Of a stretch of DNA of 64,000 nucleotides, positions 3,335 to 18,882 are shown piece after piece. The notes under the pieces were generated by a model. It was given only the letters and a program-made list of their open reading frames with translations. It was not told the DNA's origin and searched no databases. Origin of the DNA: Gaiellaceae bacterium (GTDB lineage: Bacteria; Actinomycetota; Thermoleophilia; Gaiellales; Gaiellaceae); the NCBI GenBank assembly GCA_036522595.1, contig DATDFL010000288.1, positions 10,414-74,413 on the forward strand, written 5' to 3'. Within the stretch, counting starts at the first letter, position 1, and the number at the start of each line of letters is the position of its first letter. Position numbers and translations under genes: made by a program.

Positions 3335-3343
3335 AGGGGAGGT

Positions 3344-5441: not shown

Positions 5442-8400
5442 CTACAGAGGAATTACCGGAGTCGAGACGACTCCGAGCCGCGCCAGCAGCGCCTTCGCTT
5501 CCTTGGCTTCGGCGCTGCCGTCCGCGCCGCGTCTTTCCGCCAGTTGCGCCAGGGCGTCGAGGGTGAGCGCCAGCTCGTAGGTCTCGTCCTCTGCACGGGC
5601 GACGTCGAGGCTCCGGTGCAGCGCTTCCTCGGCGACTTCGAGATCGCCATGCTGCAGCAGCGCGTAGCCGCGCAGGCGGAGGACGAGGGCGTGTTGGAGG
5701 TAGCCGCTGCCCGTCTGCTCGATCTCGGCCAGTGTCTCGTCGGCGCGATGCAGCGCGCCTTCGGAGTCGCCCGCGAACAGGGCTGCTTCCGCGAGGCGGG
5801 TCTTCACCTCGAGGAGCAGGCTCCCCGCGCGGATCTCGTCGGCGGTCGAGAGTGCCTGTCCGAGGAGCTCGAGCGCGTCCCCCACCCGGCCCTCGCGCGC
5901 CGCCGTGCGGCCGAGGTTCGACAGCGCCGCCGTGGCGAGCAACCGGTGTCCCGAGGTCTCGAAGACCTCGCGCGCCTCTGTGAAGAGCTCGCCCGCCGTC
6001 GTCAGGTAGCCCTGGTCGGACTTGATCTCGCCGATGTTGCTCGTGATCGTCGCGGCGCCGACGACGTCGCCGATGCGCTCGCGCAGCGCCTTGCTCCGCT
6101 CGTAGCAGTCGAGCGCCTCGCGCCAGCGGCCTTCGTAGTACGCGTCCACGCCGAGGTTGTTGAGCGCGTTCGCCTGGCCGAGCAGATCGCCGATCTCCTC
6201 GTAGATCGGCAGCGCGATCCCGCGGAACGCCGCGCGCTCCGGGCTCCGGTTGGAGATGTACGCGTAGTGGAGCAGGTGGTAGGCGTGGGCAAGCGCGGGC
6301 AGATCGCCGACCTGGTTCGCCTCGTCGATGACGCGTCGGCACCACTCGGCGCCGGCGGCGAACTCGCCCTGCCGCACGCGCACTCCGGCGTACGCGAGCG
6401 AGAGCTCGAAGCGCATCCGCTGCTGCTCGGCCGGCTGCAGCGAGTCCAGCGATTGGAGCCCGCGGTTGTACCAGCGGAGCGCGGCCGAGTAGCGGCCGAA
6501 GCGTTCGCGGATGACGCCTTCCTTGTGCAGGAGCCGCGGGTGGCTTTCGAGCTTCCGTGCCTTCGAGTACGCCTCGGCCGCATCGGCATAGAGGCCGGCG
6601 AGCTCGCTCACGTCTCCGACCGACTCCCAGACGCGCGCAAGCTCCTCGGACGGCAGGTCGAGCTTCGGCGCGGCCCCGAGCGCGCGGCGGTAGAACGAGG
6701 CGGCTTCGACGTTGGCGAACTTCGCCTGCGCGCGCTCGCCCGCGACGAGGGAGTAGCGCCAGGTCTTGTCCACGTCGCCCGCGTGGGAGAAGTGCAGCGA
6801 GAGGAGCTCGGCGAACTCGCCGCGGCCTTCGTGCTCGATCCGTTCGTACGCCTCGCCGACCTTGGCGTGCAGCTCGCCGCGCCGCTTGTACGAGAGCCCC
6901 TCGTAAGCGGCGTCTCGGATGAGCGCGTGGCGGAAGCGGAAGGCGCCGGCCGCGTACGGGTCGCGCTCGATGAACTCCGTCAGCCGGTCCCAGGCCTGGG
7001 AATCCGCGGAGGCCTCCGGATCCTGCGCGAGGACGTCCGCGATCAGCTCTCCGCTGAAGGTCGCGCCGAGGACGGCCGCGTAGCGCAGCAGCGTCCGGTC
7101 GCCCGGCGGGAGCTTGTCGATCCGCGTCGCGACGACGGCCTCGACGCTCTCCGGCAGCGCCTCCTCCTCGGGCGCGCGCGAGGACACGACGAGCTCCTGC
7201 AGGAAGAGCGGGTTTCCGCCGGCCCGGTCGGCGATCGCGGCGACCTCGTGCTGGAGCATCCCGTCGGCAGCGGCGGCGCCGATCAGCTCGCGCGCCTCGT
7301 CGGCGGACAGCGGCTGGAGCTGGATCGTCATCGCCGGGATCGGCGGCACGCCGTCGGCCGCGGAGAAGCCGCCTTCGACCGGCCGCCGCGTCACGCAGAT
7401 CAGCCACGGCCGGGTCGGCACCTGGCCGCCCAGGTGGCGCAGGAGCTCGGACGACGCCTCGTCCATCCAGTGCGCGTCCTCCACGACGAGCAGCGTCGGA
7501 TCGGGCAGGAGCTTCGTCAGCAGGGTCTCCATGACGCCGTGCAGACGGGCGCGGCGGAAGGCAGGCTGCAGCTCGTCGACCTCCCGCGTCGCTTCGACCG
7601 GGAGGTCGAGGACCATCCCGACGAGCGGCAGCCACGGGACGAGCTCCGGATCGAGCGCTTCGACCTCCTCGCGGAGCCTCGTGAGATCCAGGAGGCTGTG
7701 GAGCAGCCCGCGGAACGCGAAGTACGGCGTCGAGGCCTCGTACTGCTCGCAGACGGCCGCGAGGGCGCGGAGGTCGGGCGCCCGCGTCTGCAGCTCTTCT
7801 ACGAGACGCGACTTGCCGAGGCCGGGCTCGCCGATCAGCTCGACCATGTTCCCGAATCCCATCCGCACGGGCCCGAGCGCCGCGGAGACGATCGTCAGCT
7901 CGCGCTCCCGGCCGACGAACGGCACGCGCTGCTCCGGAGCCTCCTCTGCAGGCGCCGTGACGGAGTGGACGTCGAGCGCCGTGACGAGCCCCTCGATCCC
8001 CTTGAGCGGGAACGGCTCGAGCTCGGTGGTCGCGAACGTGCTCCGGCAGCGTTCGAGGAACTCCGGGGTGGCGAGCAGCTGGCCCGGCTGCGCCTTGCCC
8101 ATCAGCCGCGCCGCCAGTGCGGCCGTCTTGCCGAGGATCGTGTACGTGCGCCTGAACCTGGCGCCGACCTCCCCTGCGAAGACCCGGCCGCGGCTGACCC
8201 CGATCCGTAGCGGCAGCCGGTGCCGGCCGGCGGCGATGCCGAGCACGGTCCGCAGGAGGCGCTCCTCGTCCTCGCCCTCGGTTCTCGGCGCCCCCGCGAC
8301 CAGGATCATCTTGACGCCGTCGCTGTCGATGTCGGTCTCGAGGAAGGTGACGCCGTGCTCTTCAGCCACGCGCTGCGCCGAGACGACGACCTCTTCGAGC

Positions 8401-9224
8401 GCTTCGCCCACAGCCTCCGCGCCCTCTGCGGCTAGCAGCGCGTCGACGCCGCCGACGTGGACGAACGCGACCGAAGCTTGGCGGTGCTCCGGCTCGGTGT
8501 CGCCGGCTTCGAGGTGACGGCGAACGCGCGCCGGCACAGAGGCCCCGAGGTCGAGGCCTTCCAGCGGCGGCAGCGGCTCGATTCCGGCGGGCCCGCCCGG
8601 TGCGGCCGTCAGATGGCGTCCGCCGCTGTCGGCCTCGCCGAACAACGCGTCCGGGAGGCGAGAAGCGGTCTCGTCGCTGACGAGGATCTCCCCGGCTTCA
8701 GCCGCGCTCTCCATCTCGACGGTCTTCGTGACACCGGGCCCCGCGAGCAGCAGCTCCCGGTGCGACTCCCCGACGAGGAAAAAGTCGTAGACGTCGCTGT
8801 GGATCCCGACGTGCATCTTCAGCGTCACCGGGCCGACCGAGGTCTGCGGCCGCCCGAGCTCTTTGAGGGCCGTCCTCATGCCGAATGCCGCGTCGCATGC
8901 CCGCTCCCTGTGGTCCTCGCCCGAGAAGAACAGCAGCAGCGCGTCGCCGCCGAACTTGAGCAACCCGCCGCCGAACGCGTACGCAACGTCGAGCAGGCGC
9001 GCGAAGACGAGGTTCATCACGTCCGTGACCTCCTCCGCGCCGAGCTTGCCCTTCGTGGCCAGCCGCTCCGACATCGCCGTGAAGCCGGAGATGTCCACGA
9101 AGGCAAGCGTCCCCTCGAGCTCGCGCCTGCGGGCGTCGGGAGCGTCCCGCAGCCAGTCGACGACGACTCGAGGGACGAACGGGGTGAGATCGACCGGCGG
9201 CGCGGTCTCAGGAGCCGCCATCAC
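5442..9224 (-). CDS. tandem class III nucleotidyl cyclase domains + AAA/STAND-type ATPase + TPR signalling protein
   Basis: CHD1 has LAFVDISGFT and KFGGDALLLFF. CHD2 has VAFVHVGG and RIGVSRGRVFAGEVG..ILGKTAALAARLM. The Walker A is GEPGLGKSRL, followed by about 500 aa of TPR-like helical repeats. Confidence 0.85.
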   Translation of the reverse strand: MMAAPETAPPVDLTPFVPRVVVDWLRDAPDARRRELEGTLAFVDISGFTAMSERLATKGKLGAEEVTDVMNLVFARLLDVAYAFGGGLLKFGGDALLLFFSGEDHRERACDAAFGMRTALKELGRPQTSVGPVTLKMHVGIHSDVYDFFLVGESHRELLLAGPGVTKTVEMESAAEAGEILVSDETASRLPDALFGEADSGGRHLTAAPGGPAGIEPLPPLEGLDLGASVPARVRRHLEAGDTEPEHRQASVAFVHVGGVDALLAAEGAEAVGEALEEVVVSAQRVAEEHGVTFLETDIDSDGVKMILVAGAPRTEGEDEERLLRTVLGIAAGRHRLPLRIGVSRGRVFAGEVGARFRRTYTILGKTAALAARLMGKAQPGQLLATPEFLERCRSTFATTELEPFPLKGIEGLVTALDVHSVTAPAEEAPEQRVPFVGRERELTIVSAALGPVRMGFGNMVELIGEPGLGKSRLVEELQTRAPDLRALAAVCEQYEASTPYFAFRGLLHSLLDLTRLREEVEALDPELVPWLPLVGMVLDLPVEATREVDELQPAFRRARLHGVMETLLTKLLPDPTLLVVEDAHWMDEASSELLRHLGGQVPTRPWLICVTRRPVEGGFSAADGVPPIPAMTIQLQPLSADEARELIGAAAADGMLQHEVAAIADRAGGNPLFLQELVVSSRAPEEEALPESVEAVVATRIDKLPPGDRTLLRYAAVLGATFSGELIADVLAQDPEASADSQAWDRLTEFIERDPYAAGAFRFRHALIRDAAYEGLSYKRRGELHAKVGEAYERIEHEGRGEFAELLSLHFSHAGDVDKTWRYSLVAGERAQAKFANVEAASFYRRALGAAPKLDLPSEELARVWESVGDVSELAGLYADAAEAYSKARKLESHPRLLHKEGVIRERFGRYSAALRWYNRGLQSLDSLQPAEQQRMRFELSLAYAGVRVRQGEFAAGAEWCRRVIDEANQVGDLPALAHAYHLLHYAYISNRSPERAAFRGIALPIYEEIGDLLGQANALNNLGVDAYYEGRWREALDCYERSKALRERIGDVVGAATITSNIGEIKSDQGYLTTAGELFTEAREVFETSGHRLLATAALSNLGRTAAREGRVGDALELLGQALSTADEIRAGSLLLEVKTRLAEAALFAGDSEGALHRADETLAEIEQTGSGYLQHALVLRLRGYALLQHGDLEVAEEALHRSLDVARAEDETYELALTLDALAQLAERRGADGSAEAKEAKALLARLGVVSTPVIPL

Positions 9225-9365
9225 TAGCCTTTCGAGTGCACTTGTGACCTCTCCTCTTCCTCGCGCGGCGTTGCCATTGTCGCATGGTTGACAAAGTCCT
9301 AGAACCTGTCACATTGGATCGGTTCCACGACAGGGATCGAGAGCGAACGGGGAGAGAGGTTAGTA

Positions 9366-12300
9366 GTGGCTCAAGCTGCGGCCGGCGCGGGCTTCAGGAA
9401 GGTGTGCCTGCGCCTTCTTCAATTGACGGTGGCGGGGCTTCTCGCCGTGGGCATCCTCGCCGGCGCGAGCGTCGGCGCTGACGGTTTTGACACGCAGAAC
9501 CAGAACTTCACCGTCAACCTCGGCCTCGGCAGCTCGAAGACGGTTCATCCGACGCTGCATCTCGACGCGCTCCCGCCCAGCGCTGACGTCCTGATTGCGC
9601 TCGACACGACGGGCAGCATGGGCGGCGCGATCACAGACGCGCGCACGGATGCGAACAGCATCGTCAACGACATCCAGGCGCAGATCCCGCACGCGCACTT
9701 CGCGGTGGCGGACTTCAAGGACTACCCCCAAGTCCCGTTCCAGGGGGTTTTCGGGATCGCCGGCGACTACCCCTGGCGCGTCGACCAGGACTTCACGGAG
9801 AACACGACCACTGCCCAGTGCGGCGACGGCACGGCGACCCCGATCGCGTGTGCGCTCAACGGTCTGACCGCTCCCTCGGGCAGCGGCGGTGACGGGCCGG
9901 AGGCCTACAACCGCGCTTTCTTCGAGGCGTACCACGACACCGGGCTGCATTGGACGCCAGGGGCGTCTCGCTTCATGGTCGTGCTCGGCGACGCACTGCC
10001 ACACGACGCCAACCTGGCCACTGACTTCCCCGACTGTCCGAACACCGCGCCGACCGATCCCGGGCCCGACGGCGTTCCCGGGAATGCGGACGACCTGCGC
10101 TCGGCGCCCACGCTGGCACAGCTCCGCGGAAACAACACGAATCTCTCGTTCGTCACTTACAACCAGCCGGCAGGCAGCCAGATCGCCAACTGCCACACGG
10201 CGCTCGCCCAGTTCACGGGTGGGACCGAGGTCGTCCACGGCAATGCCGACTCGTTGCGCAGCCAGATCGTCGCCCTGATCCAGGCCGCGGCAAAGCACGT
10301 CGACAAGCTCGACTTCAACATCACCGGGACGCTCTCGGATCACGAGACGCCGATCCAGAACGCGGCTTCCTGGTTCACCTTCGACCCACCGCTGCCGTAC
10401 GGACCGATCACGGCGCCCGCGGACATCAGCTTCGACGAAACGATCAAGGTGCCGGACGGCACACCGGCCGGTACGTACTACTTCCGGCTCGGCGCCGTGG
10501 CGGACGGCTCCGAGCGCGCCGTCCAGACGGTCACCGTCAACGTCACGAACACCGCGGTCAGCTCGGTGACGATGACCTCGGACGAGTCGACGGTTCCCGC
10601 AGGAATCAAGCAGGCGCCGTTCTCGTCGATCCCGTCATCGCGGCTTGCCTCCCTGACCCACGATCCGAACTCCGCGCCTGCCGGCTCCACGGCCCAGGGC
10701 TCGATCGCGCAGGGCTCGATCGCGCAAGGCTCCATCGCGACGGGCTCGATCGCGGTCGGCTCGATCGCGCAAGGGTCGATCGCGGTGGGCTCGATCGCCA
10801 CCGGCTCGATCGGGCTCGGCTCGACGGCGCAGGGCTCGATCGCGCAGGGCTCGATCCCGGGTGGAGCTGCCGTGCTGAGCGACGTCCTGCTCTCGCAGAT
10901 CCCGCTGTCCGGCGCGACGTGGGCGGACATCCTCAAGAACACGCCGTTCGCCAACCAGCCGCTTCAGGCTGTGTCGCTCGCCGACATCGCGACCTACAGC
11001 GTCCGCGACACGAGCACCGACAACAAGACTCCGTGGGAACGGCTGATGGCGCTGCCGCTCCGGCAGATGCCGCTGTTCACGACGCTGTGGCGCAACATCC
11101 CGCTCGGCGCGGTGTTGCTCGGCAACGCGCCGCTCTCATCGCTGCCGACGCCGCTGAAGCCCGACGGCACGGGGCGCTACCTTACCTGGGCCGACGCGCT
11201 GACGGCCAACGGCGGCAGCGCCACGGGTCTGAACCCTGCGACGAACACGGTCTTCGGCGTCGCCGTCGCCGGGCAGCTCGGCACGACGGCCGTCGGCTCG
11301 ATTGCTGTCGGCTCGATTGCCCAGGGATCGATCGCCCAGGGCTCGATCCGGGCCGACTCCACGGCCACCGGCTCGATCGCGGTCGGGTCGATCGACCTGC
11401 GGCTGACGAACCTCGCCTCGGTGCCGCTCGACCACGTGAGCCCGCTGGCGAGCATCGTCAACTGCACCGCGCTCGGCACGTGCACGGGCAAGACGCTGGG
11501 CGACGCGTCCGGGGCGAACGCGTTCCAGCCAGGTGTGACGCTGATCCAGCTGCTGAACGCGCTGCAGGCGCCATACGACACGAGGTTCATCTCGATCGAC
11601 GACCTCGCGCGGGCCATGCTCCCGCTGTCGGACTACCCGTGGGAGCAGATCCTGGTGCAGGGCCTCCAGGACGTCGCCGGCACCGGGCAGAACGTCCACT
11701 ACCACGTCGACTTCGACCTGGTCTGCTCCGTCGCGACGAGCTTCGGCGTCCACGTGAGCCTGCCGGCGGGCTTCTTCCCGGTCGCGGGAACGTCGACGTA
11801 TTCGTACGCCGGCGGCGCACCGGTCGCGGCGGCCAACCCGACCGGCCCGCCGAGCGACCCGGTCTGGACGATGGCGGGCGCGGGCCCGTGCGCGGGAGCC
11901 GGAGGCATCACTCAGCACGTCCGCCTCAACTTCCAGTCCTACGCGGGCCTCACCCTGGGCAGCCAGACCTCGAACGTCCAGGTCACCGTGAACGACGGCA
12001 GCTACGCGGCGAACGGCCAGGCCCCCGTGCTCGTGACGCAGAACTGGGAGCCGAACGACTCGCGCGACAGCGCGCCGACGATCGACAAGAACACGCTGAT
12101 CGTCGGGCACATCGCGACCTCGAGCGACACCGATTTCTTCCGCTTCCCGCTCGGGAACCTGGCGCCGAACACGAAGGTCGCCGTCTACCTCAAGGTTCCC
12201 GGCGACGGGACCGACCTCGACCTGGTGGTCAACAAGCCCGCACCGGCGGGCGTGCAGTCGAGCGCCCAGGGCTCGATCGCGCAGGGAAGCATTCCCATCG

Positions 12301-15300
12301 AGGACGTCGCGCCCGGCGTCGACAACTCGACCGGCGCGCTCCAGCCCGACGCGTCATCCGACCTCGCGGCCGGCTCGATCGCGCAAGGCTCGATCGCGCA
12401 GGGCTCGATCGCACAGGGAAGCATCTCGGCCAACCGCGGCTCCGTGAACGAAGTCGCGCAGATCGTCACGCATGGCGAGACCGGCGATGCCACGATCGGC
12501 GTCAGCGGCTACAACGGCGCGTTCAGCAACCAGCAGTACGTGCTGCGCGTCAAGGTCACGCCGCCGCCGGGGCTGCCGCCGTGCGATCCGATCACCGGCC
12601 TGAACACCGCGGCGGCCGGGACGCTGCCGGCGGTGACGTCGCTGCCGACGACCACGAAGGCGCTCTTCCTCGTCAATCGCCAGCGGCTGGCCGGCCTCTA
12701 CGGGGCGACGCGCACCGATGCGCTGATCAACTCCGACCCGTCGTCGCCGCTCAACGCGGTGGCGGCCTCGGTCGGGGGAGCAGTCCTGCCCGTCGACGGG
12801 AACGTGAACGTGCACAACGCCTACGTCACCTGGGACTCGAACCCGTGCAACGTCGAGTCTGCGAACGCAGTCGTCCGGTCGATCAACGACCTCGTCGCGA
12901 CCTACCGCACGCGGCTTCCGAACCTGAAGTACGTCGTCCTGCTCGGCACCGACACCGCCGTGCCGTCGTGGCGCCAGTTCGACCTCTCCAACGACTCGCC
13001 CGAGGTCGACGAGGCGAACGACCTCGCGTTCACGACGCGCAACTCCGCGGGGCAGCTCCTCACGAAGGGCAACGCCCTCTACGCGGCGGCCGCGCAGAAC
13101 ACGATCCTCACCGACGGCGCCTACGGTGCCTTCACCCAGCGCAACTGGCTCGGGCACGCGATCCCGCTTCCCGAGATCAGCGTCTCGCGCCTCGTCGAGA
13201 CGCCGGAGGACATCCTCGGACAGCTGAACCAGTACCTCGATCCGAGCGTGAACGGCCGGCTCGACCTGCATTCCGCGGTCACGACCGGCGACTCGTTCTT
13301 CGCGGACGGCGCGCAGGCCGCGGCGAACTCGCTCCTGACGCAGCTGGCGCCGCTGAACCAGACGACGCTGCTCCCGTCGATCTCGAGCTGGACGAAGCAG
13401 GACCTGCTCAACGACTACTTCAGCCTCAATCCGGTGCCCGACGTCGGTGCGCTCTGGGCGCACTACTCACACTGGCTCTCGCAGCCGGCAGGCGTTCCGG
13501 CCACGCCGACGCTCGCGGATCTCGTCTCTACCGGCGATGCGAACGCGACGCGCCGGAACGGGCAGCTCCTCTTCACCGTCGGCTGCCACAGCGGCCTCAA
13601 CGTGCCCGACCAGATCGCGTCGCTCGAGAACGGCGTGGTGTCGTCGGACGACCAGAAGCGGCTGCTCGACTGGGCGCAGGCCTACATGAGCTCGAAGACG
13701 GCGGTCTACGTCGCGAACACCGGCTATGGCTACGGCGACACGACCACGATCGACCTCTCCGAGCGGCTGATGGACCACTTCGCAGCCAACATCAACTCGG
13801 GTGGCACCATCGGCGAGCAGTGGGTGCGCGCGCTGCACCAGTACTACTCGGAGCCGGGGAACTACGACGTCCTCGACGAGAAGGTTATGGTCGAGGCGAA
13901 CATGTACGGACTGCCGTTCTACGGCTTCACGGGGAGCCCCGTGAACGTCCCGCAGGCGCCGACCCCGCCGGCAACCGTGGCCGACGGCAACTTCAGCACG
14001 GCGCATCTCGATGCGATCACCGCGAACGTCCAGCCGCAGAACCTGACCGACGGTTCCGGCCGCTCGCTGTTCGTGAACCAGGGCCATCCCGACGGCTCGA
14101 CGTTCCTCCAGGGCGGCGTGCCGCTGACGATGGGAACGCTCTCGGTCTTCTACCGGCCGGCGCAGCCCGAGATCTCGCGTGACGTCACCGTGCCGGGCAC
14201 GACCGCGAAGGGCGTGTGGATCCGCGCCCTGACGACGCACACGGTCAATGACGTGAAGCCCGTCAAGCCGTACCCGCTCGTGCGCTCGGGCGCGGACGCG
14301 CCGGCGAAGGACTACCCGAACATCTTCTTCCCGGCCACGATCGCGACCGTCAACCGTGACGCCTCCTTCGGCGCGGAGCACGACAACGTCGTCGTCAACC
14401 TCGGTCGGTTCTTCCCGAACGACACAGGGGACCACGGCAAGGAGCAGGTCGTCGACTCGGTCGGCCTCGACGTCGGCTACTCGAACTCGACCGACTGGAC
14501 CGCTCCCCAGATCACGCAGACCGGCGCAGTGGAGACCAGCGCCGGGCACTTCACCGCGTTCGTTCGCGTGACCGATGCTTCGGGCCTCCGCCGCGTGTCC
14601 GTGCTCTACAACGACGGGAACCCAGTCTGGACCGTCGTCCCGCTGACGCAGGCGGGCGGCGACCTCTGGACGGCTTCGTTCACGGCGACGAGCCCGATCG
14701 TCGTGGATTCCGAGGCGCAGGACAACGCCGGGATGGTCGGCTACAGCTTCAACAAGGCCGTCAACTTCCAGTCGGCCGTGGAGCAGGCCGGCTCGGCGCC
14801 GTCGATCCTGATCACGAACCCGCTTCCGGTTCCGTCCGGCACGTTCACCCTGAACCAGCAGGTGCCCACGAACTTCGTGTGCTCGTCGGCGCTCGGCGTG
14901 AGCAGCTGCTCGGGCGCGACCGACGGCGGCGCCTCCGTGCAGAGCGGCGGCCTGCTCGACACGAGTCGGCCCGGCACGCACACGTTCACGGTCACGGGCA
15001 CCGATCTCGCGGGCCATTCGGCGACGAAGAGCGTCAGCTACGTCGTCAACTTCGTCTTCGTCGGCTTCCAGCCGCCGGTCGATGCGCCGCCGATCCTCAA
15101 CACCGTCAATGCCGGTAGCACGGTGCCGATCAAGTGGACGCTCGCGAATGCCGCCGGCACGTTGTACGCCAACCTGGACGCCGTCCAGTCGCTATCGTCG
15201 AGGCAGATCCGGTGCCCAAGCGAGAACACCGACCCGGCGGGCCAGGACGTGCCCATCGGGACGACCGACTTCCTGAAGATCACCAACGGGACGGTCTTCC

Positions 15301-15404
15301 AGTTCAACTGGAAGACGAGCACCGCCTTCCGGAACACCTGCCGCCGGTTCTACATCCACCTGTCCGACGGCTCGACGCCGTACACCGACTTCAAGTTCAG
15401 GTAG
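9366..15404 (+). CDS. giant secreted multidomain protein: VWA, GSIAx pentapeptide arrays, PPC domain, clan-CD (gingipain/caspase-like) peptidase-like region, Ig-like and PxKF-like C-terminus
   Basis: GTG start behind GGAGAGAGG, with signal peptide LLAVGILAGASVGA. The VWA MIDAS-like motif is LIALDTTGSMGG. The PPC-like motif is WEPNDSRDSAPTI..GHI..SSDTDFFRF. The peptidase-like region has KYVVLLGTDTAVPSW, TDGAYG, ISVSRL, AHYSHW and FTVGCHSG. The C-terminus has VGFQPPVD..VNAGSTVPIKWTL. Confidence 0.85.
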   Translation: MAQAAAGAGFRKVCLRLLQLTVAGLLAVGILAGASVGADGFDTQNQNFTVNLGLGSSKTVHPTLHLDALPPSADVLIALDTTGSMGGAITDARTDANSIVNDIQAQIPHAHFAVADFKDYPQVPFQGVFGIAGDYPWRVDQDFTENTTTAQCGDGTATPIACALNGLTAPSGSGGDGPEAYNRAFFEAYHDTGLHWTPGASRFMVVLGDALPHDANLATDFPDCPNTAPTDPGPDGVPGNADDLRSAPTLAQLRGNNTNLSFVTYNQPAGSQIANCHTALAQFTGGTEVVHGNADSLRSQIVALIQAAAKHVDKLDFNITGTLSDHETPIQNAASWFTFDPPLPYGPITAPADISFDETIKVPDGTPAGTYYFRLGAVADGSERAVQTVTVNVTNTAVSSVTMTSDESTVPAGIKQAPFSSIPSSRLASLTHDPNSAPAGSTAQGSIAQGSIAQGSIATGSIAVGSIAQGSIAVGSIATGSIGLGSTAQGSIAQGSIPGGAAVLSDVLLSQIPLSGATWADILKNTPFANQPLQAVSLADIATYSVRDTSTDNKTPWERLMALPLRQMPLFTTLWRNIPLGAVLLGNAPLSSLPTPLKPDGTGRYLTWADALTANGGSATGLNPATNTVFGVAVAGQLGTTAVGSIAVGSIAQGSIAQGSIRADSTATGSIAVGSIDLRLTNLASVPLDHVSPLASIVNCTALGTCTGKTLGDASGANAFQPGVTLIQLLNALQAPYDTRFISIDDLARAMLPLSDYPWEQILVQGLQDVAGTGQNVHYHVDFDLVCSVATSFGVHVSLPAGFFPVAGTSTYSYAGGAPVAAANPTGPPSDPVWTMAGAGPCAGAGGITQHVRLNFQSYAGLTLGSQTSNVQVTVNDGSYAANGQAPVLVTQNWEPNDSRDSAPTIDKNTLIVGHIATSSDTDFFRFPLGNLAPNTKVAVYLKVPGDGTDLDLVVNKPAPAGVQSSAQGSIAQGSIPIEDVAPGVDNSTGALQPDASSDLAAGSIAQGSIAQGSIAQGSISANRGSVNEVAQIVTHGETGDATIGVSGYNGAFSNQQYVLRVKVTPPPGLPPCDPITGLNTAAAGTLPAVTSLPTTTKALFLVNRQRLAGLYGATRTDALINSDPSSPLNAVAASVGGAVLPVDGNVNVHNAYVTWDSNPCNVESANAVVRSINDLVATYRTRLPNLKYVVLLGTDTAVPSWRQFDLSNDSPEVDEANDLAFTTRNSAGQLLTKGNALYAAAAQNTILTDGAYGAFTQRNWLGHAIPLPEISVSRLVETPEDILGQLNQYLDPSVNGRLDLHSAVTTGDSFFADGAQAAANSLLTQLAPLNQTTLLPSISSWTKQDLLNDYFSLNPVPDVGALWAHYSHWLSQPAGVPATPTLADLVSTGDANATRRNGQLLFTVGCHSGLNVPDQIASLENGVVSSDDQKRLLDWAQAYMSSKTAVYVANTGYGYGDTTTIDLSERLMDHFAANINSGGTIGEQWVRALHQYYSEPGNYDVLDEKVMVEANMYGLPFYGFTGSPVNVPQAPTPPATVADGNFSTAHLDAITANVQPQNLTDGSGRSLFVNQGHPDGSTFLQGGVPLTMGTLSVFYRPAQPEISRDVTVPGTTAKGVWIRALTTHTVNDVKPVKPYPLVRSGADAPAKDYPNIFFPATIATVNRDASFGAEHDNVVVNLGRFFPNDTGDHGKEQVVDSVGLDVGYSNSTDWTAPQITQTGAVETSAGHFTAFVRVTDASGLRRVSVLYNDGNPVWTVVPLTQAGGDLWTASFTATSPIVVDSEAQDNAGMVGYSFNKAVNFQSAVEQAGSAPSILITNPLPVPSGTFTLNQQVPTNFVCSSALGVSSCSGATDGGASVQSGGLLDTSRPGTHTFTVTGTDLAGHSATKSVSYVVNFVFVGFQPPVDAPPILNTVNAGSTVPIKWTLANAAGTLYANLDAVQSLSSRQIRCPSENTDPAGQDVPIGTTDFLKITNGTVFQFNWKTSTAFRNTCRRFYIHLSDGSTPYTDFKFR
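10683..10862 (+). repeat. in-frame 15-bp tandem repeat, 12 units (GSTAQ GSIAQ GSIAQ GSIAT GSIAV GSIAQ GSIAV GSIAT GSIGL GSTAQ GSIAQ GSIPG)
   Basis: GGCTCGATCGCGCAG-type 15-mers lie head to tail, read directly from the sequence. Confidence 0.95.
11280..11399 (+). repeat. in-frame 15-bp tandem repeat, 8 units (GTTAV GSIAV GSIAQ GSIAQ GSIRA DSTAT GSIAV GSIDL)
   Basis: Same 15-nt period and the same GSIAx unit as the array at 10683. Confidence 0.9.
12255..12299 (+). repeat. in-frame 15-bp tandem repeat, 3 units (QSSAQ GSIAQ GSIPI)
   Basis: Same unit. It ends in GSIP like array 1. Confidence 0.8.
12372..12431 (+). repeat. in-frame 15-bp tandem repeat, 4 units (GSIAQ GSIAQ GSIAQ GSISA)
   Basis: Same unit, with three nearly identical DNA copies in a row. 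Confidence 0.9.
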
Positions 15405-16600
15405 CCGCAGCGCGGCGGGCGCTTCCCCGCAACGTCCGCGCGCTCAGCTGGGTCTCGTTCGCGAACGACGCCGCGAGCGAGCTCGCCTATCCGATCGTGC
15501 CGCTCTTCCTGACGGTGACGCTCGGGGCGCCGGTCGCCGCGGTCGGGCTGATCGAGGGGATCGCTGAGGGAATCGCCGTCGGCCTGCGCGGGGCGGCGGG
15601 CTGGCTTTCCGACCGCTGGGGCGAGCGGCGGTTGCCGTGGGTCGGTGGGGGCTACGGCGGCTCGGCCTTGGGGCGAATCGTCGTCGCGGCGGCTCCGCAC
15701 TGGGGCTGGGTGCTCGGCGGCCGGGTCGTCGACCGCCTCGGGAAGGGCGCCCGGACAGCTCCTCGCGACGCGCTGATCCGCGACTCGACCCCGCCGCCGC
15801 TCCTCGGAGCGGCGTTCGGCTACCACCGCGCGCTCGACACGGCCGGCGCGGTCGTCGGGCCGTTGATCGCGGTGGCGCTGCTGGCGGCCGGGCTGTCGTT
15901 CCGCAACGTGCTCTGGATCGCGATCGTCCCGGGGTTCCTTGCCTTGCTTCTGCTCCGGGCCGTCCGGGAGGCGCCGAGAGCCGCGGCGGAGCCAGTCGTC
16001 GCGACCGGCGGGGGGTCGCTGCCGCGCGCATTCTGGCCGGTGCTCGCGATCTGGGTCGTCTTCTCGCTCGGGAACTCGAGCGACGTCTTCCTGCTCCTGC
16101 GCGCGAAGGAGCTCGGCCTGGGCACGACGATGGTCGTACTCGCCTACGCGGCCTACAACGTCGTCTACTCCGGTCTCTCGTGGCCGCTGGGAGCGCTCTC
16201 CGACCGCTACCGGCGCGAGCTCCTGCTCGGTGGCGGGCTGCTCGTCTTCGGGCTCGTCTACCTCGGCTTCGCGGTCGCTCCGGGAAGCTGGGCGGTCTGG
16301 CCGCTGTTCGCCGTGTACGGGGCGTACATCGCGGCGACGGACGGTGTCGCCCGCGCCTGGGTCGCCGACCAGGTTCCAGGCCGCGCGATCGGTACTGCGT
16401 ACGGCGTGTTCTCGGCGGCTACGGGCGGTGCGCTCCTGCTGGCGAGCATCGCCGCGGGCCTGCTCTGGTCGCACGTCTCGCCCGCGGCGCCGTTCGTGCT
16501 CGGCGCGGCCGGGGCGGGGCTTGCGCTCGTGCTGCTCCTGCTCAGCTCGACCAAGACGGCGCGAGCGACCACGTCTCGAGATGCTCCACCGCCTGCGTGA
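15134..16600 (+). CDS. MFS transporter (start codon unresolved)
   Basis: The conserved MFS N-terminus (NVRALSWVSFANDAASELAYPIVPLFL) begins near 15431, and about 12 hydrophobic segments follow. No ATG/GTG/TTG lies in frame between the upstream stop (15404) and that point. The only canonical starts are ATG 15134 and GTG 15212, both inside the upstream gene. Confidence 0.75.
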   Translation: MDARECRRHVVRQPGRRPVAIVEADPVPKREHRPGGPGRAHRDDRLPEDHQRDGLPVQLEDEHRLPEHLPPVLHPPVRRLDAVHRLQVQVAAARRALPRNVRALSWVSFANDAASELAYPIVPLFLTVTLGAPVAAVGLIEGIAEGIAVGLRGAAGWLSDRWGERRLPWVGGGYGGSALGRIVVAAAPHWGWVLGGRVVDRLGKGARTAPRDALIRDSTPPPLLGAAFGYHRALDTAGAVVGPLIAVALLAAGLSFRNVLWIAIVPGFLALLLLRAVREAPRAAAEPVVATGGGSLPRAFWPVLAIWVVFSLGNSSDVFLLLRAKELGLGTTMVVLAYAAYNVVYSGLSWPLGALSDRYRRELLLGGGLLVFGLVYLGFAVAPGSWAVWPLFAVYGAYIAATDGVARAWVADQVPGRAIGTAYGVFSAATGGALLLASIAAGLLWSHVSPAAPFVLGAAGAGLALVLLLLSSTKTARATTSRDAPPPA

Positions 16601-17156
16601 GCTCCGCCGCCGAGAGGGGGAACGCCTCCGCGTAGGGCACCTGCTCCATCGCGGGCTTCGGAGATCCCCCTGCCGCCGCGTTCAGCGCGTAACGAATCGG
16701 CAGGCTGTGCGCGACCACGAGGATCGTCTGCTCGGGGCGTTCGAGAATCTTGTGGATGGCCGTGATGAAACGCCTGACGCTGTCGGCCCGGCTCTCGCCG
16801 CCGGGCACGACGTCCTCGGGCCCGTGCGCGCGCGCCCACGCCCGATAGTCCGCGAGGAGGCGGCCTTCGAACTCGCCGAAGCGGATGTCGTTCAGCTCCG
16901 GGAGGACTATTCGCGGGACGTCTCGGCCCTCGAGCGCCAGGTCCGCGGTCTCCTGCGTGCGCTGGAACTCGCTGACGGCGCAGAGGTCGATCTCGGTCTC
17001 GCCGAGGCTCCGCCCCAGGAGGCGCGCCTGCCCGCGGCCGCGCTCCGTGAGGGCCACCTCGAGCTCCGGGTCGCCGTTGGTCAACCCGCGGACAGAGAAC
17101 TCGCTCTCCGCATGCCGTGCCAGCAGTACGCGCTCCACGGGCGGCATTCTGTCCAT
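16542..17156 (-). CDS. histidine phosphatase (phosphoglycerate-mutase superfamily) protein
   Basis: N-terminal VLLARHAESE (RHG-type motif) and a later VAHSLPIRY motif. Its 3' end overlaps the convergent MFS gene by 59 nt. Confidence 0.8.
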   Translation of the reverse strand: MDRMPPVERVLLARHAESEFSVRGLTNGDPELEVALTERGRGQARLLGRSLGETEIDLCAVSEFQRTQETADLALEGRDVPRIVLPELNDIRFGEFEGRLLADYRAWARAHGPEDVVPGGESRADSVRRFITAIHKILERPEQTILVVAHSLPIRYALNAAAGGSPKPAMEQVPYAEAFPLSAAELTQAVEHLETWSLAPSWSS

Positions 17157-17295
17157 GGCGATTCCCCCGGGCGGGTGATAGCCGTTGTTGACTCGGCGCC
17201 GAGAATGTCAACTACAGACAACGCGGGGCCGATCCGAAGTGCCTGCCGCAGGGTCTCGGAACTGCTCGCCGCTGGGTCACCGCGTACTTAACTGA

Positions 17296-17329
17296 ACGGC
17301 CTCCCGCAAGGGAGGTCGTTCTTCGTTTC
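17296..17329 (+). terminator. intrinsic-terminator-like hairpin (10-bp stem, GCAA loop, T-rich tail)
   Basis: ACGGCCTCCC-GCAA-GGGAGGTCGT is followed by TCTTCGTTTC. The T-tract is on the + strand only. Confidence 0.55.
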
Positions 17330-17348
17330 GGGCTACAGTGAGTCGACT

Positions 17349-17419
17349 GCGGGCGTAGCTCAATGGTAGAGCCCTAGCCTTCCAAGCTAGTTATGCGGGT
17401 TCGATTCCCGCCGCCCGCT
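17349..17419 (+). tRNA. tRNA-Gly (anticodon TCC)
   Basis: Acceptor GCGGGCG/CGCCCGC, anticodon stem CTAGC/GCTAG with loop CTTCCAA, T arm GCGGG TTCGATT CCCGC, discriminator T. A TACAGT -10-like box lies 10 nt upstream. Confidence 0.93.
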
Positions 17420-17421
17420 CT

Positions 17422-17715
17422 TCAGCGCGGCTGGTCGGCGAGGGGCTCGAGCGCGGCCGCCGTCGGCTGGAGGTCGCCCGACTCGAGGCCGGCGACGATT
17501 TCCCGCGCGAGCTGGAGCGCCTGGCTTTCCTGGTCGGCGCTGAGAACGGTGTTCACCGCGGCCAGGTGCTGCCCGTCGGCGAACAACTCCACGTCGACGG
17601 TGTCCAGTTCGCGGCGCGGGATGTACGAGTCCTCCGGAATGCCGACGCGCACGTGCACCTCCCGCCCGTCGGGGAGCGACGCTGTCTTCTCGATCGGCCG
17701 CCCTCGCAGGCTCAC
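17422..17715 (-). CDS. hypothetical protein (97 aa)
   Basis: Clean ORF with non-Arg-biased composition (MSLRGRPIEKTASLPDGREVHVRVGIPEDSYIP...). I recognise no family. Its stop abuts tRNA-Gly. Confidence 0.5.
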   Translation of the reverse strand: MSLRGRPIEKTASLPDGREVHVRVGIPEDSYIPRRELDTVDVELFADGQHLAAVNTVLSADQESQALQLAREIVAGLESGDLQPTAAALEPLADQPR

Positions 17716-17778
17716 GGCGGGAGATTACTCCGGGGGCGGGGGTCCTAAACGTCCGGGCCGGGAGCCATCCTGGGCGGG

Positions 17779-18852: not shown

Positions 18853-18882
18853 AAACCGAACGAACCTGCCGATGGCCTCTTC

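What the first reader, a model, noticed from the sequence alone, without database searches (positions are those of the whole stretch)
9366..15404. 2012-aa secreted protein combining VWA, novel repeats, PPC, a caspase/gingipain-like region and a PxKF-like tail
The signal peptide is followed by a VWA domain with a DxTxS MIDAS-like motif (LIALDTTGSMGG), then the GSIAx arrays and a PPC-type motif (WEPNDS..A..I..GHI..SSDTDFFRF). Next comes a region whose landmarks resemble clan CD peptidases of the gingipain type: KYVVLLGTDTAVPSW, TDGAYG, ISVSRL, a His in AHYSHW and a Cys in FTVGCHSG (TGC at 13584-13586). The protein ends with Ig-like modules and a PxKF-like domain (VNAGSTVPIKW). I cannot match this combination of an adhesion domain and a putative protease on one extracellular polypeptide to a described protein. 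It could be a self-processing adhesin or a surface-remodelling protease.
Basis: partly seen in the sequence, partly recalled or inferred. Interest (0 to 1): 0.7.

Follow-up and report, generated by a model that had tools for sequence, protein, structure and literature searches.

The report
Giant secreted gingipain-like protease with integrin-like head
This gene encodes a 2012-residue secreted protein of a soil actinobacterium that joins an integrin-like binding head to a distant relative of the gingipain proteases, and across two phyla it sits beside the same cytoplasmic signalling gene, but nobody has studied the family.

Summary
ORF 9366-15404 (+) encodes a 2012-aa protein with one N-terminal hydrophobic signal segment.

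- **Head:** a VWA domain that is specifically like the integrin-beta headpiece (Foldseek E 8e-15), with D80-x-T82-x-S84 invariant.
- **Repeats:** four pentapeptide arrays, which AlphaFold2 predicts to be disordered.
- **PPC:** a PPC-type sandwich with a large inserted loop.
- **Protease:** a clan CD domain whose best structural matches are the gingipains RgpB and Kgp (E 4e-11). His1366 and Cys1407 are invariant and align to RgpB His211 and Cys244.
- **Tail:** Ig-like modules and a C-terminal PxKF domain (86 bits).

New findings:

- The C25-like domain occurs in at least 564 loci of Actinomycetota and Chloroflexota genomes.
- 44 of 48 loci with full flanks also carry an orthologous cyclase-STAND ATPase-TPR gene, so this is a conserved two-gene module.
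- The pentapeptide unit differs between species (29 units in 48 loci) but is uniform within each protein.

Most likely this is an active extracellular cysteine protease that is targeted by its binding modules. Its substrates, any self-processing and the role of the neighbouring gene are untested. It is a new variant of a known kind.

The parts
9366..15404 (+). Whole gene: 2012-aa secreted multidomain protein
   Evidence: ORF; GC3 0.92; about 70 full-length homologues
9350..9359 (+). Shine-Dalgarno-like GGGAGAGAGG, 6 nt upstream of the GTG start
   Evidence: Read directly from the sequence
9276..9317 (+). Conserved intergenic block ATTGTCGCATGG-TTGACA-N14-GTCACATTGG. It is promoter-like, with a perfect -35 hexamer at 9288-9293
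   Evidence: The same block is present in most intergenic regions printed for homologous Gaiellaceae-type loci (L006-L016; degenerate in L009; absent from the more distant L018). The strict sigma-70 scan found no full promoter
9366..9479 (+). Signal peptide, residues 1-38: R/K n-region, hydrophobic core 13-35, then SVGA|DG
   Evidence: Hydropathy; it is the only hydrophobic segment in the protein. SignalP was not run
9480..10625 (+). Integrin-beta-like headpiece, residues about 39-420: a VWA/betaI domain (about 72-312) flanked by beta-sandwich strands
   Evidence: AF2 pLDDT is about 90. All top 50 Foldseek hits are integrin beta chains, E 8e-15, about 390 aligned columns. The family profile hits integrin beta-8 at E 7e-4. 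Pfam VWA_4 is matched by 23 of 24 members
9603..9617 (+). MIDAS-type motif D80-T-T82-G-S84, followed by M85
   Evidence: D80, T82, S84 and M85 are invariant in 24 and in 46 homologues. The motif aligns to the integrin DxSxSM
10683..10856 (+). Pentapeptide array 1, residues 440-497, about 11 GSIAx units
   Evidence: TRF period 15; AF2 pLDDT 23-35
10857..11279 (+). Middle region, residues 498-638, with degenerate period-5 motifs (LSQIP, ANQPL and similar)
   Evidence: AF2 pLDDT mostly 70-86, dipping to 52-57 around residues 565-585, with short helices. Conserved in 51 of 84 loci. No family match
11280..11399 (+). Pentapeptide array 2, residues 639-678
   Evidence: TRF; low pLDDT
11400..12032 (+). 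Linker segment plus beta-sandwich, residues 679-889, with conserved Cys700/706 and Cys787/842
   Evidence: AF2 strands, pLDDT about 90 for residues 776-891; invariant Cys residues
12033..12563 (+). PPC-type beta-sandwich, residues 890-1066, interrupted by a disordered loop of about 55 residues
   Evidence: The loop-deleted profile hits the ColG collagen-binding domains 5iku at E 2.8e-4 and ColH 3jqw at 0.065. P0077 gives a weak Pfam PPC hit. The query itself has no Pfam hit
12258..12299 (+). Pentapeptide array 3, residues 965-978, inside the PPC loop
   Evidence: TRF; pLDDT below 50
12372..12431 (+). Pentapeptide array 4, residues 1003-1022, inside the PPC loop
   Evidence: TRF; pLDDT below 50
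12648..13925 (+). Divergent C25 (gingipain-like, clan CD) peptidase domain, residues about 1095-1520
   Evidence: AF2 pLDDT 84, pTM 0.85. Foldseek hits RgpB at 4e-11 and Kgp at 4e-9, then CHAT, separase and caspases. PF01364 is matched by 5 of 13 homologous domains, best 1e-14
13461..13463 (+). His1366, the proposed catalytic histidine
   Evidence: Invariant in 33 sequences, including 28-36% identical relatives. It lies 3 residues after a beta-strand. It aligns to RgpB His211
13584..13586 (+). Cys1407 (TGC), the proposed catalytic nucleophile, in the invariant G-C-H
   Evidence: It aligns to RgpB Cys244. It is the only mature Cys without a nearby partner Cys
14043..14795 (+). Conserved region after the protease domain, residues about 1560-1810; fold not modelled
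   Evidence: Conserved together with the C25 domain in 73 of 84 loci. It aligns to P0080 and P0077. It was not modelled
14796..15056 (+). Ig-like module, residues about 1811-1897
   Evidence: Weak Big_13, He_PIG and Bact_surface_Ig-like hits. The family profile hits the KIAA0319L PKD domain at E 0.013
15063..15401 (+). C-terminal PxKF domain, residues 1900-2012
   Evidence: NCBIfam NF038114, 86.1 bits against a cut-off of 35. The domain lies at the extreme C-terminus in nearly all of the best 150 of 4517 relatives
5442..9224 (-). Conserved partner gene, divergently transcribed: a 1260-aa cytoplasmic protein with two cyclase-homology domains, an AAA_16 (STAND-type) ATPase and TPR repeats
   Evidence: Pfam; no TM segment. 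An orthologue lies next to the C25 gene in 44 of 48 loci with at least 9 kb of flank, and its identity tracks that of the C25 domain with r 0.83-0.89

Best explanation
The gene encodes an extracellular, catalytically competent cysteine endopeptidase of a very divergent branch of family C25 (gingipain-like, clan CD). The protease sits inside a long modular polypeptide.

A Sec-type signal peptide exports the protein (inferred). The N-terminal integrin-beta-like VWA head would use its metal-ion site (D80/T82/S84) to dock onto an acidic residue of a protein ligand (inferred). Ig-like and PPC-type sandwiches, together with disordered pentapeptide linkers, would give the catalytic domain reach. In that domain His1366 and Cys1407 cleave the bound or neighbouring protein (dyad shown by homology; activity inferred). 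The C-terminal PxKF domain is a module shared by thousands of other secreted proteins. It probably retains or sorts the protein at the cell surface (inferred).

The invariant core of the family is the pentapeptide arrays, the PPC domain, the C25 domain and the segment that follows it. The N- and C-terminal modules are swapped between lineages, as expected for targeting modules. The protein forms a conserved two-gene module with a cytoplasmic cyclase-STAND ATPase-TPR protein. The most economical role for that partner is to control when the protease is made, through cyclic nucleotide signalling (inferred).
For: **Protease domain.**
- The AF2 model is confident (pLDDT 84, pTM 0.85).
- Its best PDB matches are RgpB (4ief, E 4e-11) and Kgp (E 4e-9). 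All further significant hits are clan CD enzymes.
- P0077 scores 33.9 bits against Pfam PF01364, above the cut-off of 23, and aligns to query residues 560-1805 at E 5e-81. Five of 13 trimmed domains match PF01364, best 1e-14.
- His1366 and G1406-C1407-H1408 are invariant in 33 sequences down to about 30% identity.
- hhalign over 308 columns places them on RgpB His211 and Cys244. The RgpB sequence was verified against 1cvr.
- The NSD motifs YVVLLGTD.AVP, TDGAYG and VSRLVETPEDI align to RgpB YVLLVGDHKDIP, SDQVYG and IGRFSCESKEDL.

**Extracellular location.**
- There is a single N-terminal hydrophobic segment.
- The 14 non-catalytic mature Cys form 7 near-neighbour pairs, and only Cys1407 is unpaired.
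- The domain types are those of extracellular proteins.

**Head domain.**

**Disordered arrays.** pLDDT is below 50.

**Modularity.** Among 84 loci, VWA is present in 27, PxKF in 52, PPC in 74 and C25 in all 84. Other lineages carry beta-helix, lectin, PD40 or Kelch modules instead.

**Partner gene.**
Against: - The query itself does not reach any Pfam threshold for C25, VWA or PPC.
- Sequence profiles alone find no C25 chain in the PDB.
- The catalytic-half alignment to RgpB appears only at a permissive hhalign setting, with probability 64%. The default run aligns only the N-terminal subdomain.
- The clan CD 'His-Gly' motif is replaced by an invariant His-Tyr.
- The RgpB S1 residue Asp163 falls in a gap, so specificity is unknown.
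- No prodomain of the gingipain type was detected.
- His-Cys distance could not be measured.
- No experimental data exist.
- The link to the cyclase gene is genomic only. No CRP-type site was found in the shared intergenic region.
Confidence: 0.55

Rival explanations
1. Self-processing polyprotein. The main substrate of the C25-like domain is its own chain. It cuts within the disordered pentapeptide arrays, which lie between domains and inside the PPC loop. This releases or rearranges the integrin-like head and the other modules, as gingipain and HagA polyproteins are cut into adhesin domains. This reading is compatible with the best explanation and could be one part of it.
For: The arrays are predicted to be disordered and therefore accessible. 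They sit at the same four positions in all homologues. Within one protein all arrays share one unit, which would suit a single cleavage specificity. Family C25 has a precedent in prodomain autoprocessing (PMC4357240).
Against: No residue of the unit is conserved across the family, although the catalytic domain is well conserved: there are 29 units in 48 loci. Clan CD enzymes usually have a strict P1 preference. Two arrays lie inside a folded PPC sandwich, where cleavage need not separate anything. Array homogeneity can also be explained by slippage and gene conversion of 15-bp repeats.
Confidence: 0.2
2. PorU-like sorting transpeptidase. The C25-like domain processes the C-terminal PxKF domains of many other secreted proteins, in the way PorU (family C25) removes the C-terminal domains of type IX secretion cargo.
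For: PxKF lies at the extreme C-terminus of thousands of otherwise unrelated proteins. PorU belongs to C25 and is detected from RgpB (6za2). PorU also carries the C-terminal domain that it processes in others (from my own knowledge).
Against: Among the 84 loci examined, 32 C25-like genes show no detectable PxKF. No co-occurrence test of PxKF cargo with this gene was possible. The large binding modules and the PPC domain are more typical of degradative proteases. Foldseek ranks RgpB and Kgp first, not PorU.
Confidence: 0.07
3. Non-catalytic adhesin. The C25-like fold is a structural or binding module (a pseudo-protease), and the protein acts only as a surface adhesin or matrix component.
For: The His-Gly motif is replaced by His-Tyr, and the S1 Asp is missing. 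The protein has many binding-type modules.
Against: His1366 and Cys1407, and the G-C-H context, are invariant across Actinomycetota and Chloroflexota relatives down to about 30% identity. The search pattern [FY][TS][MIV]GCH[SGA]G recovered at least 564 loci. Pseudo-enzymes normally lose such residues.
Confidence: 0.08
4. Intracellular STAND-controlled caspase-like effector of a conflict or cell-death system. The adjacent STAND ATPase senses an invader and activates the clan CD protease.
For: There is tight, co-evolving linkage of a clan CD protease gene with a STAND-type ATPase-TPR gene. The cyclase domains resemble Pycsar-type cyclases only generically.
Against: The protease has a signal peptide, paired cysteines and extracellular domain types. 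It has no PADLOC match. The partner has no membrane segment, so the two proteins would be in different compartments.
Confidence: 0.04

Closest known systems
Gingipains RgpB and Kgp of Porphyromonas gingivalis (MEROPS family C25, clan CD; PDB 1cvr, 4ief, 4rbm)
   Same: They are the best structural matches. The His/Cys dyad is aligned. The N-terminal-subdomain motifs are shared. Both are secreted multidomain proteases accompanied by adhesin-type modules.
   Different: - About 12% identity over the Foldseek structural alignment to RgpB/Kgp, and the query is below the Pfam threshold.
- His-Tyr in place of His-Gly.
- No equivalent of the Arg-binding Asp163.
- No PF08126 propeptide and no type IX C-terminal domain.
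- The host is a monoderm-type actinobacterium.
- It has an integrin-like head, pentapeptide arrays, a PPC domain and a PxKF tail.
- It has a conserved cyclase-STAND partner gene.
PorU (C25-family sortase of the type IX secretion system; PDB 6za2)
   Same: It belongs to family C25. It is a large multidomain surface protein. Conceptually, it pairs with a C-terminal domain that is shared by many secreted proteins.
   Different: It does not appear in the 50 listed Foldseek hits. No evidence for transpeptidation was obtained. PxKF is unrelated to the type IX C-terminal domain as far as tested here.
Integrin beta-subunit headpiece (betaI domain inserted in the hybrid domain)
   Same: All top 50 Foldseek hits are integrin beta chains, with about 390 aligned columns. 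The shared motifs are DxSxSM against DxTxSM, G-x-D-x-P-E, and LxVxxD..H.
   Different: There is no alpha-subunit partner, PSI or EGF domain, or membrane anchor. Thr replaces the first Ser of the metal-ion site. The domain is fused to a protease. It is present in only 27 of the 84 loci examined.
PPC / collagen-binding domains of clostridial collagenases ColG and ColH (Pfam PF04151; PDB 5iku, 3jqw)
   Same: The E-P-N-D...G.i....D.D.y.f motif is shared, and the region is a predicted beta-sandwich. PPC domains typically accompany secreted proteases.
   Different: This domain carries a disordered insertion of about 55 residues that holds two pentapeptide arrays. It does not reach the Pfam threshold.
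Actinobacterial cyclase-ATPase-TPR proteins (Rv0386 type of Mycobacterium tuberculosis; named from my own knowledge) and TIGR03903 kinase/cyclase fusion proteins
   Same: The partner gene has class III cyclase-homology domains, an AAA_16/STAND ATPase and TPR repeats. It is partly similar to TIGR03903 (183 bits, far below that model's cut-off).
   Different: No DNA-binding domain was detected. It has two cyclase domains. Its fixed pairing with a secreted C25-like protease gene was not found in any paper searched here.

Membership tests
Peptidase family C25 (gingipain family), clan CD | Caspase-haemoglobinase alpha/beta/alpha fold, with an extended sheet as in gingipains | tested here: met
   The AF2 model has pLDDT 84. 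Foldseek gives probability 1.00 to RgpB and Kgp, with E 4e-11 to 7e-9 and TM 0.45-0.53. CHAT, separase and caspases follow.
Peptidase family C25 (gingipain family), clan CD | Catalytic His then Cys at the C-terminal ends of two successive sheet strands (PMC4357240) | tested here: met
   His1366 lies 3 residues after strand 1360-1363, and Cys1407 lies 3 residues after strand 1400-1404. Both are invariant. They align to RgpB His211 and Cys244 (permissive setting, probability 64%).
Peptidase family C25 (gingipain family), clan CD | His and Cys side chains juxtaposed in three dimensions | not testable with these tools
   Model coordinates are not exposed.
Peptidase family C25 (gingipain family), clan CD | Score above the Pfam PF01364 gathering threshold | tested here: not met
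   The query has no hit. Homologues do: P0077 scores 33.9 bits against 23, and 5 of 13 domains match, best E 1e-14. Membership therefore rests on transitive homology plus fold.
Peptidase family C25 (gingipain family), clan CD | Gly on both sides of the catalytic His (G-H-G), and Ala before the Cys | tested here: not met
   Canonical C25 proteins have G210-H211-G212 invariant and A243-C244. This family has an invariant A-H-Y and G-C-H.
Peptidase family C25 (gingipain family), clan CD | Acidic S1 residue that gives Arg or Lys specificity (RgpB Asp163) | tested here: not met
   Asp163 falls in a 14-residue gap of the query in the profile alignment. Specificity is therefore unknown.
Peptidase family C25 (gingipain family), clan CD | N-terminal inhibitory propeptide (PF08126) and type IX C-terminal domain | tested here: not met
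   Neither was detected. Canonical relatives carry PF08126.
VWA / integrin-beta I-like domain | Rossmann-like alpha/beta fold | tested here: met
   AF2 shows alternating strands and helices with pLDDT about 90. Foldseek matches integrin beta at E 8e-15.
VWA / integrin-beta I-like domain | MIDAS motif DxSxS plus distal acidic ligands | tested here: met
   D80-x-T82-x-S84 is a Thr variant. D176, E179 and D209 are also invariant. The motif aligns to the integrin beta-8 DxSxSM, D-x-P-E and TD motifs. Metal binding was not tested.
VWA / integrin-beta I-like domain | Pfam gathering threshold (VWA_4, VWA) | tested here: not met
   The query scores 16.9-22.2 bits against a cut-off of 27. Twenty-three of 24 family members match at E <= 0.1, best 7.6e-9.
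PPC, bacterial pre-peptidase C-terminal domain (PF04151) | Profile match to PPC or collagen-binding domains | tested here: inconclusive
   There is no Pfam hit, even with the loop removed. P0077 scores 18.2 bits against 25.9. The loop-deleted family profile hits ColG 5iku at E 2.8e-4, ColH 3jqw at 0.065 and Tk-SP 3afg at 0.013.
PxKF domain (NCBIfam NF038114) | Score above the curated cut-off, and position at the C-terminus | tested here: met
   The score is 86.1 bits against 35, over residues 1900-2012, which run to the last residue. Relatives carry the domain at their extreme C-terminus.
Pentapeptide-repeat proteins (right-handed quadrilateral beta-helix, A(D/N)LXX) | Period-5 repeat that folds into a beta-helix and matches the family consensus | tested here: not met
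   The period of 5 is present. The unit is P/A-x-G-S-[ITV]. There is no PF00805 hit, and Pentapeptide_2 is matched by only 2 of 24 members at E 0.015. AF2 gives pLDDT 23-35.

The most novel reading that the evidence does not exclude
The pentapeptide arrays may be precursors of a diffusible signal. The protein's own C25-like domain, or another protease, would release the repeated five-residue unit outside the cell. The peptide would be taken up and bound by the TPR domain of the co-inherited cyclase-STAND protein, which would answer with a cyclic nucleotide. This would be a self-contained peptide-signalling module, analogous in logic to the Phr pentapeptide and Rap-TPR systems of Bacillus. The species-specific units (29 in 48 loci) would act as 'pherotypes'. 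It would explain three otherwise unconnected facts: the strict gene pairing, the uniformity of the unit within a protein, and its rapid change between lineages.
Probability: 0.06. Interest if true: 0.85.

Novelty: new variant of a known kind. Interest (0 to 1): 0.55.

Why it matters
Family C25 is known almost entirely from Porphyromonas gingipains and the type IX sortase PorU. This protein belongs to a large, deeply divergent branch, with at least 564 loci among species-representative genomes of Actinomycetota and Chloroflexota. These phyla include abundant soil lineages such as Gaiellaceae that have hardly been cultured.

The branch has its own hallmarks:
- an altered active-site context;
- positionally fixed pentapeptide arrays whose sequence changes freely between lineages;
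- exchangeable targeting modules, including a bacterial integrin-beta-like headpiece;
- a cytoplasmic cyclase-STAND-TPR partner that has stayed next to it across phyla.

If the protease is active, it is a candidate major extracellular protease of these soil bacteria. The gene pair also offers a tractable case of how a cytoplasmic STAND-type sensor is coupled to a secreted enzyme. One cultured organism, Nocardioides marmorisolisilvae KIS18-7, carries the module, so experiments are possible.

Tried and rejected
- **Direct sequence searches.** Searches of the whole protein, the family profile, the trimmed protease profile and the P0080 domain against PDB sequences found no C25 chain. The link needed Pfam hits on remote homologues, structure prediction and profile-profile alignment.
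- **Default hhalign.** The run against RgpB alone, and the run against a canonical C25 alignment, aligned only the N-terminal subdomain. The dyad alignment required -mact 0.01.
- **Dyad geometry.** It could not be measured, because no coordinates are available.
- **PPC by Pfam.** This failed for the native sequence and for loop-deleted sequences.
- **Beta-helix reading of the arrays.** Rejected on AF2 disorder and the absence of a PF00805 match.
- **Defence-system reading.** The large protein has no PADLOC match.
- **cAMP-receptor site.** A search of 26 intergenic regions for TGTGA-N6-TCACA found two chance-level matches and none in the window.
- **Peptide-ligand idea.** TPR identity does not differ between pairs with the same unit and pairs with different units once C25 divergence is matched: 52.0 against 51.5% in the 50-60% bin. 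In the >=70% bin all three regulator segments drop together, which is phylogenetic confounding. The idea therefore has no support.
- **Literature.** Searches for PxKF, and for C25 or gingipain-like proteins in Actinobacteria, Chloroflexi or Gaiella, found nothing relevant.
- **Second giant ORF.** The ORF at 58790-63976 (-) is unrelated.

Full report
**1. The observation**

The ORF at 9366-15404 (+) exists as described. It starts with GTG and encodes 2012 aa. Its codon-position bias is that of a real gene in this 69% G+C genome, with GC3 of 0.92. A Shine-Dalgarno-like GGGAGAGAGG ends 6 nt before the start codon.

Cys1407 is encoded by TGC at 13584-13586. The 'GSIAx' arrays are true 15-bp tandem repeats at four places: 10683-10856, 11292-11348, 12258-12286 and 12372-12418.

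The only hydrophobic stretch long enough to be a signal or anchor is residues 12-40. It is preceded by Arg and Lys and followed by SVGA|DG. Of 16 cysteines, one lies in the signal peptide. Fourteen form seven near-neighbour pairs, most of them invariant in homologues. Only Cys1407 is left over. This is the pattern expected of a disulfide-bonded extracellular protein with one free active-site thiol. That last point is my inference.

**2. Homologues and host**

A database search found about 70 full-length homologues of 1870-2150 aa with 41-87% identity, plus one exact copy in a metagenome. The few named ones are 'PxKF domain-containing protein' from Gaiellaceae MAGs (Actinomycetota, Thermoleophilia). 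The window therefore most likely comes from a Gaiellaceae-type soil actinobacterium.

More distant relatives, at 26-41% identity, keep the central part of the protein but carry other N- and C-terminal modules. These include beta-helix repeats, legume-lectin, PD40/TolB, Kelch and PKD domains.

**3. Protease region**

The query gives no Pfam or PDB sequence hit for this region. Four independent lines nevertheless place it in family C25.

- **Transitive homology.** P0077 aligns to query residues 560-1805 at E 5e-81. Its equivalent segment scores 33.9 bits against Pfam Peptidase_C25, whose threshold is 23. Among 13 trimmed homologous domains, 5 match PF01364, the best at E 1e-14.
- **Fold.** An AlphaFold2 model of residues 1071-1585 is confident (pLDDT 84, pTM 0.85). 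Its best PDB matches are RgpB (4ief, E 4e-11) and Kgp (6i9a and 4rbm, E 4e-9 and 7e-9). SAVED-CHAT, Csx29, separases and caspases follow, and all of these are clan CD.
- **Conservation.** His1366 and Gly1406-Cys1407-His1408 are invariant in 33 sequences, including relatives with only about 30% identity. In the model each residue lies three positions after a beta-strand. That is the clan CD arrangement described in PMC4357240.
- **Residue-level alignment.** I wrote RgpB's catalytic domain from memory and verified it against 1cvr_A. I then collected canonical C25 proteins and aligned them. Default hhalign aligned only the N-terminal subdomain: YVVLLGTDTAVP with YVLLVGDHKDIP, TDGAYG with SDQVYG, and VSRLVETPEDILGQ with IGRFSCESKEDLKTQ. 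A permissive run (mact 0.01) gave a 308-column alignment with probability 64% and E 6e-5. In it, His1366 falls on RgpB His211 and Cys1407 on Cys244.

One discrepancy in the literature needs a note. The review prints 'His221'. In the 1CVR sequence the His in the G-H-G motif is residue 211. In the canonical C25 alignment it is G210-H211-G212 that is invariant.

There are real differences from gingipains:
- His is followed by an invariant Tyr, not Gly.
- Cys is preceded by Gly and followed by His.
- The Arg-binding Asp163 of RgpB lies in a gap of the query, so P1 specificity cannot be inferred.
- No gingipain propeptide or type IX C-terminal domain is present.

**4. N-terminal region**

A profile of 24 family members hits integrin beta-8 and beta-3 betaI domains at E 7e-4. 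The alignment pairs DxTxSM with DxSxSM, G-x-D-x-P-E with the integrin D-x-P-E, and VVLGD..H with LLVMTD..H.

The AlphaFold2 model of residues 36-1075 has pLDDT of about 90 over the first 385 residues. All 50 best PDB matches are integrin beta chains, with E from 8e-15 and about 390 aligned columns. The match therefore covers more than the VWA domain. It also includes the flanking beta-sandwich, as in the integrin hybrid domain plus betaI headpiece.

The VWA call is confirmed and sharpened. D80, T82, S84, M85, D176, E179 and D209 are invariant.

**5. PPC**

Pfam does not detect a PPC domain here, even after the inserted loop is removed in silico. A loop-deleted profile of eight family members does hit related structures:
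- the tandem collagen-binding (PPC-family) domains of ColG, 5iku, at E 2.8e-4;
- the ColH domain, 3jqw, at E 0.065;
- the C-terminal jelly-roll of the subtilisin-like protease Tk-SP, at E 0.013.

P0077 gives a weak Pfam PPC hit, and the model shows a beta-sandwich. I accept a PPC-type domain. It is interrupted by a disordered loop of about 55 residues that holds arrays 3 and 4.

**6. C-terminal region**

Residues 1900-2012 match NCBIfam NF038114 (PxKF) with 86 bits, against a cut-off of 35. An exhaustive search found 4517 cluster representatives at E <= 0.001. In nearly all of the best 150, the domain ends at the last residue of proteins ranging from 97 to over 2000 aa. That is the behaviour of a shared C-terminal sorting or anchoring module. 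No publication on it was found.

The Ig-like module at about residues 1811-1897 is supported only weakly.

**7. The pentapeptide arrays**

The arrays occupy the same four positions in all homologues, but the unit differs between lineages. Examples are GSIAQ, GSIAA, GSIPA, GAIPA, GSTPF/Y/W, GATPY, GSVPV, GSTPV, PLGAI, PLANV, PLSSI, QLSSI, PLKDI and PLRAT. I counted 29 different units in 48 loci. Within one protein, all arrays use the same unit.

The common pattern is [P/A]-x-G-S-[I/T/V]. AlphaFold2 gives the arrays pLDDT of 23-35. They do not match the classical pentapeptide-repeat family. I read them as disordered linkers and loops that are homogenised by slippage and gene conversion. Their fixed positions over such evolutionary distances are not explained by that alone.

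**8. Genomic context: the main new finding**

The divergently transcribed neighbour at 5442-9224 (-) encodes a 1260-aa protein. It has two cyclase-homology domains, an AAA_16 (STAND-type) ATPase and TPR repeats, and no membrane segment.

The same kind of gene lies next to homologues that are 56%, 47%, 41% and 28% identical to the query. A scan of species-representative genomes with the protease-domain patterns found at least 564 confirmed loci. They come from Gaiellaceae, other Thermoleophilia, Acidimicrobiia, Nocardioidaceae, Frankiales and several Chloroflexota classes, plus one Pirellulales MAG. One cultured organism is among them: Nocardioides marmorisolisilvae KIS18-7.

I examined 84 loci in detail:
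- Of the 48 loci with at least 9 kb on both sides, 44 contain all three parts of the partner gene. In three of the other four, a partial match is cut off by the end of the locus.
- The partner's identity to the window's copy correlates with that of the C25 domain, with r of 0.83-0.89.
- The orientation is usually divergent (51 loci). It can also be convergent (9) or co-directional (3), so the linkage is not just a shared promoter.
- In the same set, PPC is present in 74 loci, the post-protease segment in 73, PxKF in 52 and the integrin-like head in only 27.

The conserved core is therefore the arrays, PPC, C25 and the segment that follows, together with the partner gene.

Most of the Gaiellaceae-type intergenic regions printed share a block, ATTGTCGCATGG-TTGACA-N14-GTCACATTGG, at window 9276-9317. 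It was degenerate in L009 and absent from the more distant L018. No CRP-like site was found, and the strict promoter scan is negative.

**9. Interpretation**

The best-supported reading is an exported, active C25-type cysteine protease whose exchangeable end modules target it to ligands or to the cell surface. It is made under the control of, or in functional concert with, a cytoplasmic cyclase-STAND-TPR sensor.

- **Shown here:** the homology, the fold, the conserved dyad, the modular architecture and the gene pairing.
- **Inferred:** export, activity, ligand binding, the role of PxKF and the regulatory link.

The rival readings are self-processing at the arrays, a PorU-like sorting enzyme for PxKF proteins, a pseudo-protease adhesin, and an intracellular STAND-controlled effector. 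They are weighed in the Rival explanations section.

I also tested a more speculative idea, that the repeat unit is a released peptide sensed by the partner's TPR domain. The test looked for TPR-specific divergence between proteins with different units. It found none: 52.0 against 51.5% identity at matched C25 divergence.

**10. Novelty**

No paper describes this family. Public annotation stops at 'PxKF domain-containing protein' or 'hypothetical'. The parts belong to known kinds: C25, VWA, PPC and PxKF. What is new is:
- the deep C25 branch with its altered active-site context;
- the integrin-beta-like head fused to a protease;
- the positionally fixed but sequence-fluid pentapeptide arrays;
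- the conserved cyclase-STAND partner.

I therefore rate it a new variant of a known kind, of moderate-to-good interest.

Noticed in passing
window 5442-9224 (-), and loci L001-L084: A cyclase-AAA_16-TPR gene lies next to the C25-like gene in 44 of 48 loci with full flanks, across Actinomycetota and Chloroflexota. Its divergence tracks that of the protease (r 0.83-0.89). This conserved two-gene module was not part of the original finding.
   Followed up: yes
window 9276-9317: An intergenic block, ATTGTCGCATGG-TTGACA-N14-GTCACATTGG, is conserved in most of the intergenic regions printed for homologous Gaiellaceae-type loci. It is probably the promoter or operator of the large gene. It has no CRP-type palindrome.
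   Followed up: partly
window 10683-10856, 11280-11399, 12258-12299, 12372-12431, and the homologues: The pentapeptide unit is uniform within a protein but differs between lineages (29 units in 48 loci). The arrays keep the same four positions, and two of them lie inside the PPC domain. Concerted evolution by gene conversion explains the uniformity but not the positional conservation.
   Followed up: partly
window 10478-10954 (-): A 158-aa antisense ORF with high GC3 runs across array 1 ('EPCAIEPCAV...'). It is a mechanical by-product of the repeat on the opposite strand and not a gene.
   Followed up: no
window 58790-63976 (-): A second giant ORF of 1728 aa carries six fibronectin type III domains, a weak CBM_4_9 match and a C-terminal DMFA2_C (dimethylformamidase-beta-like) domain. 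A Bac_transf sugar transferase gene (56715-58307, -) lies next to it. It is unrelated to the finding.
   Followed up: partly
window 2-3799 (+) and 15350-19413: Upstream lie a multi-GAF/PAS histidine kinase and a response regulator. Downstream lie an MFS transporter, a histidine phosphatase, an AI-2E-family transporter and a CAP-domain protein. Much of this set recurs around the 56%-identical homologue in L002, so it is local synteny. It is absent from L001 and L004.
   Followed up: partly
protein P0115: A 4336-aa protein has 23 separate matches to the PxKF query. It is an exception to the otherwise strictly C-terminal, single-copy occurrence of the domain.
   Followed up: no
PMC4357240, section on family C25: The review prints the RgpB dyad as His221/Cys244. 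In the 1CVR sequence and in the canonical C25 alignment, the invariant G-H-G histidine is residue 211. Residue 221 is another, non-conserved His.
   Followed up: yes
locus L060 (Nocardioides marmorisolisilvae KIS18-7, NZ_RJSG01000001.1): This is the only cultured organism among the 80 best loci. It carries a 35%-identical C25-like domain with the partner gene convergent downstream. The large ORF contains a masked run of N in the stored copy.
   Followed up: no
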